From Shigella phage POCJ13: a DNA stretch of 62,699 bases. The position numbers were made by a program. The stretch lies in the sequence record KJ603229; one strand, written 5' to 3'. Position 1 is the stretch's first letter; the number at the start of each line of letters is the position of its first letter. Of this stretch, positions 15,001 through 18,000 are shown one piece after another.

Positions 15001-18000
15001 AGGACTGTACTGTGTTGACGACAACACATATCAAGCAGACAGTCATGCTGTTAGATCACGGTTTGCTTGATGGAAGGTTGACAACTCATAAGAAATTAAA
15101 TTTATTAATAAGACTCATTAAATTTTATGTTAGATTTGCAAGATGACAGGAAACAAAATATTAGGAGCAATAAAAAAAACAGGAGCAGCATTAATGTTTA
15201 TTATTCTGCTGATCTTTGTAAAGATAATTGCAACTGAGTTCGGTGATAATAAAATTGATGATATTTTATCAAACAAAGAAGATGCAGATAAAATTGCCTC
15301 ATACTTAAAAAATGAACTATCCAAGAAAAAATTCCCTATTAAAGTAGATGATTATACTACATGGATTGCTGCAACCGTAGAAGGAAATACACTTAATCAT
15401 TACTATAATATTTATGGGATTAATGAAGATATGTCGCCATTTTTTGATGGTGAAGAGATTAAAAACTTAATGAGCCTAGAAATACAAAAAAAATTAAATT
15501 CTGTCGAGTGTAAAATGATGCAGGAGTATAATTATACATTCAAATATCATTATAACATAATAAACACGAAATATAATGACTTAGTTATAATTATGACAAA
15601 GAGTAATTGTCCACAATGAAGGGGATGCATATGGATAACTCAAAACTGAAGAAAATGCTTATTGCATCTATTATCGGAAACATACTTTTAGTTTTTTTAA
15701 ATATTCAAGTGTTCAACCAAAAACACTCCTCAAACGTCATAGACACACAAAAAAAAGAGGATAAAAGTAAGTGGACTGATATAGAAAACATTTATCCTGT
15801 GTGTAAGGTTCACAATAATAACACATCTTATAGCGGGCAATTAAAGCCAGAATGGTACTGTTATTGGTTTAATCCAATAACATACAAATACACATATTTA
15901 GAAAAGACTCTGATAACATCACCCAGTGATGGTGTTTTCTATTTTTCGAACGAGTATACACCAACTATTGAATTACGTCATAAAGCAAGTGACATAAGTG
16001 TTCCTGTTGATATATATGCCAAACAATTATTAGACCGACTGGAACGTGAATCAAATGCTAAAATTTTTCTACCTAAGGAGGCCAAACAGATAAAAAGTAA
16101 AAAGTTGGAAAAATGGACTTCATTTATTACAGTTATTCCCAAAGACAATTCAAAGGATATAGAGACTTTTCTTTTATCTTTCATTAAAAAGGAAGAGGTT
16201 TTATGGACGGTTTTCGTTGAATACCCAAATGATGATAAAAAGTACTGGTACATTGATGAGAAGACATTTGATCTAATAGATAAGATAACCAGTACTTTTT
16301 GATGCGACTATCTGGCGGGGATTAAATACTATATGCACCGTATTTATTATCCCCTTTTTCTGACGGGATACAGTACATAACGAACAATATAAAGCCACCA
16401 ATATACGGGATGCACCAGATAAACAAGTACCAGGCACTTAACCCAATATCATGGAGTCTGCGGACTTTCAATGTAATGGATGGAATAATCGTAGCTAATA
16501 CGTAAACGCAAGGTATATAAAACCCATAACTAATGCCAGTATTATCTAATGTATATCCGATAAAAAAAAGAACTCCCAAGAATATTAAATTAAACAGATA
16601 ATACCACCAGAACTCTCTTCGACTGGCTCGCCCTGAATAATTGAAGTAGTTATTAAAAAGAACATCCGTATACCATGCCAAAGGGGATTTTCTCATGCTT
16701 TTATACTCCAAACATTAATATTAAATTGATGATTATTAACAACTTAAAACAACGTTAATGTTTTACCTAATAGGGTGTCAACATCTACACAAGGAAATGT
16801 TGACACACCACACATTCTGTCGGATACTCTGCGTCAGGTGCTCAAAACACCTTAGCAAGTAGCGGTTACCGCGCCCGACAGACATGCGGTTTTTTTTGTG
16901 TCCAGTCTTCTTGGTTTATGACCGGGCGTGCGGCTAATACAATACCAGCAATGGGAATATGCCCGCCGACTACTTGCGGTTTTGAGCGCCCGGTCACCCT
17001 CTCAAAAGGGGTAAATCAAAATATCAAGTAGGACACAAAGCATGAAAACCATCTCCGTGGAGTCCCTCTCCATAATTTCATTTAGTAATATACCTGTGGT
17101 GACTACAGAGCTTCTTGCCAGCTTATATGGCACAGAACCAGATTACATCCGAAAAAATTTCAATCGGAATTCTGGACGATTTGTTATCGGTAAGCACTAC
17201 TTTTTACTTGAGAATGAGGAGTTGCGCGAATTTAAGCACAGCATGTCTTTAAGACCTTCTGTGAAAATCGCCCGTAACGTTCGCTCCCTCATCCTCTGGA
17301 CAGAACGCGGAGCAGCCCGTCACGCAAAAATGCTCGAAACTGATCAGGCATGGGAAGTGTTCGAAAAACTGGAAGACTGCTATTTCAGCCAGGGAAAAAC
17401 AACACAAACCGAACAGCAGTCGCATATTCAGCCACAATTCACAGCCGAGGAAATCATCCTCCTTTGCTACATGCAGCTCTGGATGGAAAAAGCCCAGGGC
17501 ATCAGCAAACACCTGTACCCCATTATGAAAGAGCTGAACTCCTCATACACGAACAAGCTGTATGACATTGCGTTTGAGACTATCTACATGGTGACGAAGA
17601 ACAGAGACGCGCTACTGAGGGAGGTAACACGTCTCGACATGTCAAGTTCCGTTGTCCAGAGGGCCATGCCAATGCTGAAAAGCCTGCGGGCAAGACAATT
17701 TGAATTCTGAAACCAAAGGAGCTTCGGCTCCTTTTTTGTTGGGAAAATCCAGTGAGAGGGAATAATGAACCAGACTATCTTCCTCCGAAGTAAGCAGCAG
17801 CAACAATTCGCCATTAACGCAATCCTTGCAACAACTCTCGATAAAGACAAACCCGTTACGATCCGCATCACCGATTACAAGCGTAATCTCGCTCAAAATG
17901 CAAAATTTCACGCGATGGTCGCTGATATCTCCCGACAGGTTCAGTGGTGTGGCAGGTGGCTAAAACCAGAACAGTGGAAAGTTTTGTTGATCAGCGGTCA

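What the first reader, a model, noticed from the sequence alone, without database searches (positions are those of the whole stretch)
15100..16711. Low-GC islet encoding two coupled membrane-anchored proteins and a convergent DUF805 membrane protein
15143..15619 and 15616..16302 are markedly AT-rich relative to flanking phage DNA, are translationally coupled (ATGA overlap) and both begin with a single hydrophobic anchor followed by a hydrophilic domain with no motif I recognise. A DUF805 inner-membrane protein is encoded convergently. Composition and position suggest a horizontally acquired cargo operon, possibly superinfection exclusion or envelope-acting defence; this is the least explained part of the window.
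Basis: partly seen in the sequence, partly recalled or inferred. Interest (0 to 1): 0.6.

Follow-up and report, generated by a model that had tools for sequence, protein, structure and literature searches.

The report
AT-rich prophage envelope-protein cassette with DUF805
A rare, AT-rich block in a Shiga-toxin prophage encodes two new kinds of membrane-anchored periplasmic proteins next to a small inner-membrane protein (DUF805); it looks like accessory cargo that acts at the cell envelope, perhaps by blocking other phages, but no experiment has tested its function.

Summary
Window 15001-16500 has the lowest GC in the window (0.29-0.34 against a median of 0.50). It contains ORF1 (15143-15619), ORF2 (best start 15631, ends 16302) and a convergent DUF805 gene (16322-16696).

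The window is Shigella phage 75/02 Stx. Its GenBank record calls ORF1 and ORF2 hypothetical and does not annotate the DUF805 gene.

ORF1 and ORF2 each have one N-terminal membrane helix and a periplasmic domain with two conserved cysteines. Neither matches Pfam, PADLOC, NCBIfam or PDB. Both belong to very small families, about 7 and 19 clusters among billions of proteins, almost all from E. coli and Salmonella prophages.

Every ORF2-family gene I found is followed within about 35 bp by a convergent DUF805 gene. ORF1 is optional. The module is AT-rich in every lineage and sits in prophage cargo hot-spots next to unrelated RelE-type toxin-antitoxin pairs. The ORF2 periplasmic domain is hypervariable between nearly identical flanks.

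Two leads bear on function. The host DUF805 protein YhaH is needed for infection by some coliphages. A distant ORF1 relative sits in the immunity position of an Rhs toxin array.

My best reading is an envelope-protection cassette, with superinfection exclusion favoured over toxin immunity. Nothing here has been tested experimentally.

The parts
14338..14646 (-). HTH_3 antitoxin-like gene, the left end of the mobile block
   Evidence: PF01381, E 3.4e-11. Overlaps the toxin gene by 11 nt. The block shared with L005 begins at about 14345.
14636..14965 (-). Gp49 / HigB-RelE-type toxin gene (109 aa as called by PGAP), divergent from ORF1
   Evidence: PF05973, E 3.4e-25. PGAP names it 'type II toxin-antitoxin system RelE/ParE family toxin'.
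15030..15071 (.). 17-nt inverted repeat in the divergent intergenic region between the toxin gene and ORF1; possible operator
   Evidence: Repeat I1: 82% complementary, 8 nt between arms. Any regulatory role is inferred only.
15143..15619 (+). ORF1: 158 aa, N-terminal signal or anchor helix (residues 15-33), periplasmic domain with the motif FPxx[VI]DxxT...NxYY...YxY and Cys123/Cys156
   Evidence: The N-terminal 17 codons are conserved as protein in the 66%-identical homologue. An A8 tract at 15486-15493 is frameshifted in two relatives.
15631..16302 (+). ORF2: 223 aa, type II membrane anchor (residues 10-28, with invariant S13, N17, Q26), periplasmic domain with invariant C58 and C77-x-W-x-N-P-x-T (CYW[FV]NPIT in nearly all members)
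   Evidence: In-frame alternative ATGs at 15616 and 15625 are not conserved.
15725..16267 (+). Hypervariable segment encoding the ORF2 periplasmic domain
   Evidence: 42-77% nucleotide identity to L005, while both flanks are 90-100% identical. ORF2 ectodomain 50% amino-acid identity, against 90% for its TM and 98% for DUF805.
16237..16300 (.). 13-nt perfect inverted repeat (AAAAAGTACTGGT / ACCAGTACTTTTT) at the end of ORF2, between the convergent genes; possible bidirectional terminator
   Evidence: The fold is not better than shuffled sequence (z -1.2), so this is weak. L011 has a GC hairpin at the same place.
16322..16696 (-). DUF805 inner-membrane protein: 124 aa, 3 hydrophobic segments, GRASRREFW and RRLHD motifs
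   Evidence: PF05656, E 1.7e-30. 33-36% identical to E. coli YhaH and YhaI. Not annotated in KF766125.2.
16775..16806 (.). Perfect palindrome GTGTCAACAT-N12-ATGTTGACAC, 79 bp upstream of the DUF805 start codon; carries TTGACA on both strands
   Evidence: Conserved wherever the E. coli-type DUF805 occurs, including L003 (80% DUF805 identity), but absent from the Salmonella-type module. The + strand half is the -35 of a predicted promoter facing ant.

Best explanation
This is a mobile accessory ('moron') cassette carried by lambdoid prophages that puts three proteins into the cell envelope.

The DUF805 protein is a three-helix inner-membrane protein and the constant component. By the positive-inside rule its N-terminus is in the cytoplasm and its C-terminus is outside. 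It is a paralogue of the host proteins YhaH and YhaI. ORF2, and optionally ORF1, are anchored by one N-terminal helix and expose a disulfide-bonded domain to the periplasm.

I propose that ORF2's invariant, polar-residue-bearing membrane helix docks on DUF805, while its fast-evolving periplasmic domain recognises something foreign. The most likely job is to protect the lysogen at the inner membrane and periplasm by blocking genome entry of superinfecting phages (superinfection exclusion).

What is shown: the gene content, the predicted topology, strict ORF2-DUF805 linkage, mobility, the hypervariable ectodomain, and the absence of any known family. What is inferred: the physical ORF2-DUF805 interaction, expression in lysogens, and the exclusion function.
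For: 1. Cargo, not housekeeping: the block is in 8 of 5426 E. coli genomes and 1 of 50,697 phage records. The same block occurs in the nin region here and near the integrase elsewhere. In L003 the ORF1-DUF805 pair lies downstream of a CI-like repressor and a restriction-modification system.
2. Linkage: every ORF2-family locus I recovered, about 9 lineages down to 26-28% identity, has a convergent DUF805 gene 20-35 bp downstream.
3. Periplasmic location: both proteins have positively charged N-termini and a single hydrophobic helix. The Cys pairs are conserved. One ORF1 relative carries a lipobox.
4. The ORF2 membrane helix keeps invariant S13, N17 and Q26 across the family. Its ectodomain diverges much faster than both that helix and DUF805.
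5. The only phenotype I found for a DUF805 protein is in phage infection. A yhaH in-frame deletion makes E. coli resistant to phages PhiWec188 and PhiWec190, and complementation restores sensitivity (PMC12548472). YhaH is confirmed as DUF805.
6. In Lactobacillus phage LBR48 a DUF805 protein lies with other membrane proteins between the repressor and the integrase. From my own knowledge, that is the classic position of exclusion genes in Gram-positive temperate phages.
7. The neighbours are defence-type cargo: four unrelated RelE/HigB/ParE toxin-antitoxin pairs, a restriction-modification system, Kiwa, and DUF4145.
Against: - ORF1 and ORF2 have no sequence or credible structural similarity to any known exclusion protein.
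- The AlphaFold models are poor (pLDDT 47 and 49).
- There are no expression data. DNA of 27-36% GC is a typical target of H-NS silencing in E. coli (established knowledge), so the genes may be silent in lysogens.
- ORF1 is frameshifted in some carriers, so it is dispensable.
- The YhaH result concerns a host paralogue only 33-36% identical, and unrelated lytic myoviruses.
- Gene linkage could reflect long co-inheritance in one islet and not a physical complex.
- The promoter scan found no more sites than in shuffled sequence.
Confidence: 0.4

Rival explanations
1. Orphan immunity cassette. ORF1, and perhaps ORF2 and DUF805, would protect the lysogen against membrane- or periplasm-acting toxins delivered by competing bacteria (Rhs/T6SS, CDI or colicin-type). 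They would bind the toxin in the periplasm or shield its membrane target.
For: - A distant ORF1-family member (P0010; profile E 3.9e-6, pairwise 29% identity) lies directly after an Rhs C-terminal cassette in a three-cassette Rhs array. The last cassette of that array is an AHH nuclease followed by Imm11.
- That cassette's toxin tip is the only one in the array with a strongly hydrophobic (TM-like, KD >= 1.5) Gly/Thr/Ser/Ala-rich stretch, and P0010 is the only membrane-anchored small protein there.
- All eight family members hit the same PHROG.
- A hypervariable ectodomain between conserved flanks is also the hallmark of immunity specificity.
- The weak ORF2 model resembles NTF2-like cones. 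From my own knowledge, that fold is common among immunity proteins.
Against: - Only one such context was found, and it involves a remote homologue from an unrelated low-GC metagenomic organism.
- No toxin gene lies next to the module in any of the enterobacterial loci.
- ORF2 and DUF805 have no relatives in toxin arrays in my data.
- There are no hits to any curated immunity family.
Confidence: 0.22
2. Abortive-infection or sensor-effector system. The periplasmic proteins would sense an incoming phage or envelope damage and trigger DUF805 (or are held in check by it) to depolarise the membrane, possibly together with the adjacent toxin-antitoxin pair.
For: - The module is always adjacent to a RelE-superfamily toxin-antitoxin pair, in divergent orientation, in most enterobacterial contexts.
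- The Gp49/HTH pair moves together with the module.
- The multi-pass membrane partner is conserved in all contexts.
Against: - The toxin-antitoxin pairs are mutually unrelated and are absent in L003. This fits hot-spot clustering better than a functional unit.
- DUF805 proteins are ordinary, widespread chromosomal proteins with no known toxicity.
- No PADLOC model matches.
Confidence: 0.1
3. Lysogenic-conversion factor unrelated to defence. The cassette would be an envelope homeostasis, stress or host-colonisation module that alters the lysogen's envelope physiology.
For: - The chromosomal DUF805 genes yhaH and yhaI belong to the CpxR envelope-stress regulon (PMC2731931).
- The carriers are gut pathogens and commensals.
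- The proteins are located in the envelope.
Against: A hypervariable ectodomain with mosaic exchange suggests an antagonistic partner more than a housekeeping envelope role. Extreme rarity argues against a general fitness function.
Confidence: 0.15
4. Decaying, silenced AT-rich remnant with no current function.
For: ORF1 is frameshifted in some carriers and truncated in L014. The DNA is AT-rich, which predicts H-NS silencing (established knowledge).
Against: ORF2 and DUF805 stay intact in all lineages down to 26-45% identity. Their cysteines, membrane-helix residues and DUF805 motifs are invariant.
Confidence: 0.05

Closest known systems
E. coli YhaH / YhaI (DUF805, PF05656)
   Same: The same Pfam family, size, three hydrophobic segments and the GRAxRxE[YF]W and RRLHD motifs; 33-36% identity. 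YhaH is a host factor for infection by PhiWec188 and PhiWec190 (PMC12548472).
   Different: The phage copy is AT-rich (0.36 against 0.52 and 0.45 GC), prophage-borne, and always paired with a convergent ORF2 or ORF1 gene. No function has been shown for it.
Phage superinfection-exclusion pairs acting at the inner membrane and periplasm (T4 Imm + Sp; HK97 gp15; P22 SieA); recalled from my own knowledge
   Same: Small prophage or phage-encoded inner-membrane and periplasm-facing proteins, encoded as accessory genes outside the structural and lysis modules.
   Different: No sequence similarity. The T4_Spackle Pfam model gives only E 0.037 for one ORF1-family member, below threshold, and no PHROG of known function matches. 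The exclusion phenotype is untested.
Immunity proteins of polymorphic (Rhs/T6SS/CDI) toxin systems
   Same: One remote ORF1 relative occupies the immunity position after an Rhs toxin cassette. Small size, extracytoplasmic location and a hypervariable domain also fit.
   Different: The window and all enterobacterial loci lack an adjacent toxin gene. There is no match to a curated Imm family.
VirB8 / TraE-type bitopic proteins (N-terminal membrane helix plus periplasmic NTF2-like domain)
   Different: The model has pLDDT 49, so the match is only a lead. There is no sequence similarity and no type IV secretion genes nearby.
HigB/RelE-type type II toxin-antitoxin pair (Gp49 PF05973 + HTH_3)
   Same: The adjacent divergent gene pair is a standard member by domain content and overlapping gene layout.
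   Different: It is a neighbour that travels with the block, not a homologue of the three genes in question. The toxin-antitoxin pairs differ completely between contexts.

Membership tests
DUF805 (PF05656) | Match to the family HMM above the gathering score | tested here: met
   E 1.7e-30, 106.1 bits against a cut-off of 25.7, covering profile positions 1-111 of 111.
DUF805 (PF05656) | Three hydrophobic segments and the conserved GRAxRxE[YF]W and RRLHD motifs shared with YhaH and YhaI | tested here: met
   KD peaks at residues 32-50, 58-76 and 92-110. The alignment with YhaH and YhaI shows the invariant G22-R-A, R26, E28, W30 and R79-R-L-H-D.
Known superinfection-exclusion proteins (T4 Imm/Sp, P22 SieA/SieB, Cor, Llp, HK97 gp15) | Sequence homology to a described family | tested here: not met
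   ORF1 and ORF2 have no Pfam, PHROG (known function), PADLOC or NCBIfam hit.
Known superinfection-exclusion proteins (T4 Imm/Sp, P22 SieA/SieB, Cor, Llp, HK97 gp15) | Expressed from the prophage, and blocks entry of a superinfecting phage without blocking adsorption | not testable with these tools
   Needs lysogen transcriptomics and plating, adsorption and DNA-entry assays.
Polymorphic-toxin immunity proteins | Gene lies immediately downstream of its cognate toxin gene | tested here: not met
   No toxin gene adjoins ORF1 or ORF2 in the window or in any enterobacterial locus. The feature is met only for the remote homologue P0010 in the Rhs array L017.
Polymorphic-toxin immunity proteins | Membership of a curated immunity (Imm) family | tested here: not met
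   No Imm family hit for any member of A3 or A6.
VirB8-like / NTF2-like bitopic periplasmic proteins | N-terminal membrane helix followed by an alpha+beta cone (NTF2-like) domain | tested here: inconclusive
Type II toxin-antitoxin, RelE/HigB superfamily (adjacent genes 14338-14965) | RelE/Gp49-fold toxin gene overlapping an HTH antitoxin gene | tested here: met
   PF05973 E 3.4e-25 and PF01381 E 3.4e-11, with an 11-nt gene overlap. PGAP gives the same name. Activity was not tested.

The most novel reading that the evidence does not exclude
A previously unrecognised class of prophage envelope defence built on DUF805. The phage would carry a diverged copy of a host inner-membrane protein that other phages need for genome entry (YhaH). 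It would couple it, through a conserved membrane helix, to interchangeable hypervariable periplasmic 'specificity' proteins (ORF2 and ORF1) that intercept incoming phage, or toxin, components. This would also give the widespread DUF805 family its first mechanistic role.
Probability: 0.22. Interest if true: 0.72.

Novelty: new variant of a known kind. Interest (0 to 1): 0.5.

Why it matters
DUF805 is a large bacterial membrane-protein family with no known mechanism. The only phenotype I found for it is that E. coli YhaH is required by some phages. A prophage cassette that strictly couples a DUF805 paralogue to fast-evolving periplasmic proteins gives a compact three-gene system in which to test what DUF805 proteins do. 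It would also show whether phages exploit them to exclude competitors.

If the cassette blocks phage entry or neutralises membrane toxins, it adds two new protein families to the set of envelope-level defences. It would also be relevant to how Shiga-toxin prophages persist and compete in Shigella and E. coli. If it has no phenotype, it is simply another uncharacterised prophage cargo block.

Tried and rejected
- Family scans of ORF1 and ORF2 against Pfam, PHROGs, PADLOC and NCBIfam gave nothing except PHROGs of unknown function, to which the phage's own proteins match end to end, and sub-threshold noise such as XAC2610_fam (E 0.047) and T4_Spackle (E 0.037).
- Profile searches of both families against PDB sequences gave nothing below E 0.06.
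- AlphaFold2 was run on 3-sequence alignments before the deeper ORF2 alignment existed.
- ORF1 and ORF2 are not detectable paralogues of each other (hhalign probability 3%).
- Two genome-contig scans and one metagenome-contig scan for more ORF1 relatives found nothing new. The viral-contig scans added only one new lineage.
- P0013 and P0014 from the exhaustive search are repetitive proteins, and I judged them spurious.
- I rejected the idea that the HTH 'antitoxin' is a conserved regulator of the module, because the toxin-antitoxin proteins are unrelated between contexts.
- I rejected the idea that the sRNA-Xcc1-like element belongs to the islet. All three copies sit just upstream of ORF6N (antirepressor-type) reading frames.
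- The promoter and terminator scans were uninformative in this AT-rich DNA. The inter-gene hairpin is no more stable than shuffled sequence.
- Counts of synonymous and non-synonymous changes among near-identical copies were too small to use.
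Full report
**Identity of the window.**
Bases 15050-16800 are 100% identical to Shigella phage 75/02 Stx (KF766125.2). The window is the Stx1 prophage of S. sonnei 75/02, with coordinates offset by -12 from that record. The islet lies in the early-right region. Upstream are the replication genes (a DnaC-like gene at 11350-12090, then DUF1627 and DUF977). Downstream are an ORF6N antirepressor (17042-17710), NinB, RusA, NinH, Q and stx1.

**Check of the observation.**
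- GC falls to 0.29-0.34 across 15001-16500, the minimum of the whole window.
- The lowest 1.6-kb window starts at 15001 (GC 0.313, against a median of 0.502 and a 5th percentile of 0.409).
- ORF1 (15143-15619, 158 aa) and ORF2 each have a single N-terminal hydrophobic helix preceded by lysines. Each also has exactly two cysteines in the remaining hydrophilic part.
- The convergent gene is a true DUF805 (PF05656, E 1.7e-30).

There are two corrections:
- The conserved and annotated ORF2 start is the ATG at 15631, behind AAGGGG, not the ATG at 15616 that overlaps the ORF1 stop. In the diverged Salmonella-type module the two genes are 34 nt apart.
- DUF805 starts at the ATG at 16696 (124 aa), not at the TTG at 16711.

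The DUF805 gene is missing from the GenBank annotation of the phage.

**What the proteins are.**
ORF1 and ORF2 match no Pfam, PADLOC or NCBIfam family. Their only PHROG matches are to families of unknown function that they match end to end.

ORF1:
- A word-indexed search of 5.8 billion proteins found two ORF1 clusters.
- An exhaustive HMMER search of 1.84 billion representatives with the ORF1 profile added five remote relatives (E 3.5e-11 to 1.7e-5).
- These relatives share the motif FPxx[VI]DxxT...G...NxYY...D..K...YxY and an N-terminal signal or anchor. One carries a lipobox (LASC).
- All eight family members hit the same PHROG.

ORF2:
- The same word-indexed search found three ORF2 clusters.
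- A profile search gave 19 ORF2 clusters, nearly all from Salmonella enterica or E. coli, at 25-32% identity to the window protein.
- Their alignment shows an almost invariant membrane helix with polar S13, N17 and Q26. It also shows invariant C58 and C77-x-W-x-N-P-x-T (CYW[FV]NPIT in nearly all members), and mosaic variation elsewhere.

Other results on the two families:
- They are not detectably related to each other.
- Neither profile hits PDB.
- The AlphaFold2 models were made from 3-sequence alignments and are poor (pLDDT 47 and 49).
- Nothing useful came from the ORF1 model or from BFVD.

The charged N-termini, the conserved Cys pairs and the lipoprotein relative place both domains in the periplasm. 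This is an inference from the positive-inside rule and from the fact that disulfides form in the periplasm.

**Genomic context.**
The module is rare. It is present in 8 of 5426 complete E. coli genomes and in one phage among 50,697 phage records. I found these arrangements:

| Arrangement | Where |
|---|---|
| Gp49/HTH toxin-antitoxin pair, ORF1, ORF2, DUF805 | nin region (the window and close relatives) |
| The same block | other E. coli prophages, in the early-left region a few kb upstream of the integrase |
| ORF1 (66% identity) + DUF805 (80%), no ORF2 | downstream of a CI-like repressor and a type II restriction-modification system |
| RelE/HTH pair, ORF1-like (29%), ORF2-like (28%, E 8e-19), DUF805 (45%) | Salmonella-type nin region |
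| ORF2-like + DUF805, no ORF1 | next to ParE-type pairs or a lone HTH gene |
| Truncated ORF1-like gene next to a HigB/HTH pair, no DUF805 | downstream of Q |

A tblastn census of all fetched loci shows that every ORF2-family gene is followed by a convergent DUF805 gene. The gap is 19-25 bp by the gene tables where called. DUF805 is therefore the constant partner. ORF2 is strictly linked to it and ORF1 is optional.

The adjacent toxin-antitoxin pairs belong to four different Pfam toxin families and are unrelated to one another. I read this as clustering in a cargo or defence hot-spot.

**Evolutionary signatures.**
- The module genes are AT-rich in every lineage (ORF1 0.27-0.30, ORF2 0.31-0.32, DUF805 0.35-0.39), even though the lineages have diverged to 28-45% identity. 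The chromosomal yhaH and yhaI genes are 0.52 and 0.45. The composition is therefore a long-kept property, not proof of recent transfer.
- The window and L005 share a block from 14345 to about 16860 at 90-100% nucleotide identity. The exception is the segment encoding the ORF2 ectodomain (15725-16267), at 42-77%.
- Within both the E. coli-type and Salmonella-type lineages, the ORF2 ectodomain usually diverges faster than its membrane helix and faster than DUF805. It can also be exchanged independently of them. I infer that the ectodomain recognises a variable outside partner, while the helix contacts something constant, for which DUF805 is the obvious candidate.
- ORF1 carries an A8 tract (15486-15493). 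A 1-nt deletion there truncates it in E. coli EC2 and in one metagenome contig.

**Leads on function.**
- The literature search found 12 papers that mention DUF805, and I saw none that assigns it a function.
- One study found that an in-frame yhaH deletion in E. coli TK001 gives resistance to the Stephanstirmvirinae phages PhiWec188 and PhiWec190. Complementation restored sensitivity (PMC12548472). I confirmed that YhaH and YhaI are DUF805 proteins. They are 33-36% identical to the phage protein and share its motifs.
- yhaH and yhaI are induced by CpxR (PMC2731931).
- In Lactobacillus phage LBR48 a DUF805 protein lies with three other membrane or 'receptor' proteins between the repressor and the integrase.
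- The ORF1 relative P0010 directly follows one cassette of a three-cassette Rhs array. The last cassette of that array is an AHH nuclease followed by Imm11. The toxin tip upstream of P0010 has a hydrophobic Gly/Thr/Ser/Ala-rich region, and P0010 is the only membrane-anchored small protein in the array.

**Interpretation.**
The firm part is that this is a mobile prophage accessory cassette that encodes an inner-membrane DUF805 protein plus one or two bitopic periplasmic proteins from new families. The functional assignment is inferred. I rank the explanations as follows:

| Explanation | Confidence |
|---|---|
| Superinfection exclusion at the inner membrane and periplasm | ~0.4 |
| Orphan immunity to membrane-acting toxins from other bacteria | ~0.22 |
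| Non-defensive envelope conversion | ~0.15 |
| Abortive-infection sensor-effector system | ~0.1 |
| Inert remnant | ~0.05 |

Exclusion ranks first because of the YhaH phenotype, the lysogeny and cargo positions, and the hypervariable ectodomain. Against all the defence readings: there is no homology to known systems, there are no expression data, H-NS silencing is likely (established knowledge for DNA this AT-rich), and ORF1 is dispensable.

**Comparison with known systems and novelty.**
DUF805 membership is met. Membership of any known exclusion, immunity or PADLOC defence family was tested and not met. The VirB8-like or NTF2-like resemblance is inconclusive.

No paper mentions these proteins by accession, and the papers on the phage that I checked do not discuss them.

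I class the finding as a new variant of a known kind (prophage envelope cargo) built from uncharacterised parts. Interest is moderate at 0.5. It would be higher if the DUF805-based exclusion model proves true.

Noticed in passing
window 16322-16696 (-): The DUF805 gene is not annotated in the GenBank and RefSeq records of Shigella phage 75/02 Stx (KF766125.2 / NC_029120.1), although PGAP annotates it in E. coli genomes that carry the same DNA.
   Followed up: yes
window 16920-17003 (+), 61769-61854 (-), 62305-62389 (-): There are three Rfam sRNA-Xcc1 (RF02221) matches (79.6, 74.5 and 53 bits). Each lies immediately upstream of an ORF6N/antirepressor-type reading frame: the ant gene at 17042-17710 (ORF6N confirmed by Pfam) and two minus-strand ORFs at the window's right end whose N-termini resemble it (not scanned). 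The element looks like a conserved 5' leader of these genes, and the copy at 16920 marks the right border of the islet.
   Followed up: partly
window 15486-15493: ORF1 contains an A8 homopolymer. A 1-nt deletion there truncates ORF1 in E. coli EC2 (L033) and in a metagenome contig (L028). Three further E. coli records have the same 1750-nt match length. This could be slippage-prone on/off switching, decay, or a sequencing artefact.
   Followed up: partly
window 13365-14111 (-) and 14017-14283 (+): A DUF4145 protein (PF13643; weak PADLOC PD-T7-4 hit, E 0.0017) and a small overlapping gene lie just left of the toxin-antitoxin pair. They accompany the block in strain JNEC-KY176 (L002), and another DUF4145 gene lies near the ORF1-like gene in L014. 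This may be a further defence-type cargo gene.
   Followed up: no
window 16775-16806: A perfect 10-bp palindrome, GTGTCAACAT-N12-ATGTTGACAC, carries TTGACA on both strands between DUF805 and the ant leader. It is conserved with the E. coli-type DUF805 even in L003, and absent from Salmonella-type modules. It could be a shared operator or a pair of divergent promoters.
   Followed up: partly
window 37903-39924 (+): The GC-rich stretch (GC up to 0.70 at 38501-39500) encodes a 673-aa protein with long collagen-like Gly-X-Y repeats, probably a tail fibre. It is followed by a low-GC segment at 39501-41000.
   Followed up: partly
window 22206-22419 (+): A strong Rfam match to the sRNA STnc100 (195 bits) lies just downstream of stx1B.
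   Followed up: no
L017 (metagenome contig ctg147572, locus coordinates 403-11973): This is an Rhs array with three cassettes that share a conserved core up to a DLDG-type motif and have different C-terminal tips. One is AHH + Imm11. One is a hydrophobic Gly-rich tip followed by the ORF1-family protein P0010. Several small genes between the cassettes have no assigned family.
   Followed up: partly
L021 9045-10672 and L003 4761-7180: Other defence systems lie close to the module in related prophages: Kiwa (KwaA/KwaB) downstream of Q in a Salmonella prophage, and an Eco57I-type methylase with a BsuBI/PstI-type restriction enzyme downstream of the CI-like repressor in L003.
   Followed up: no
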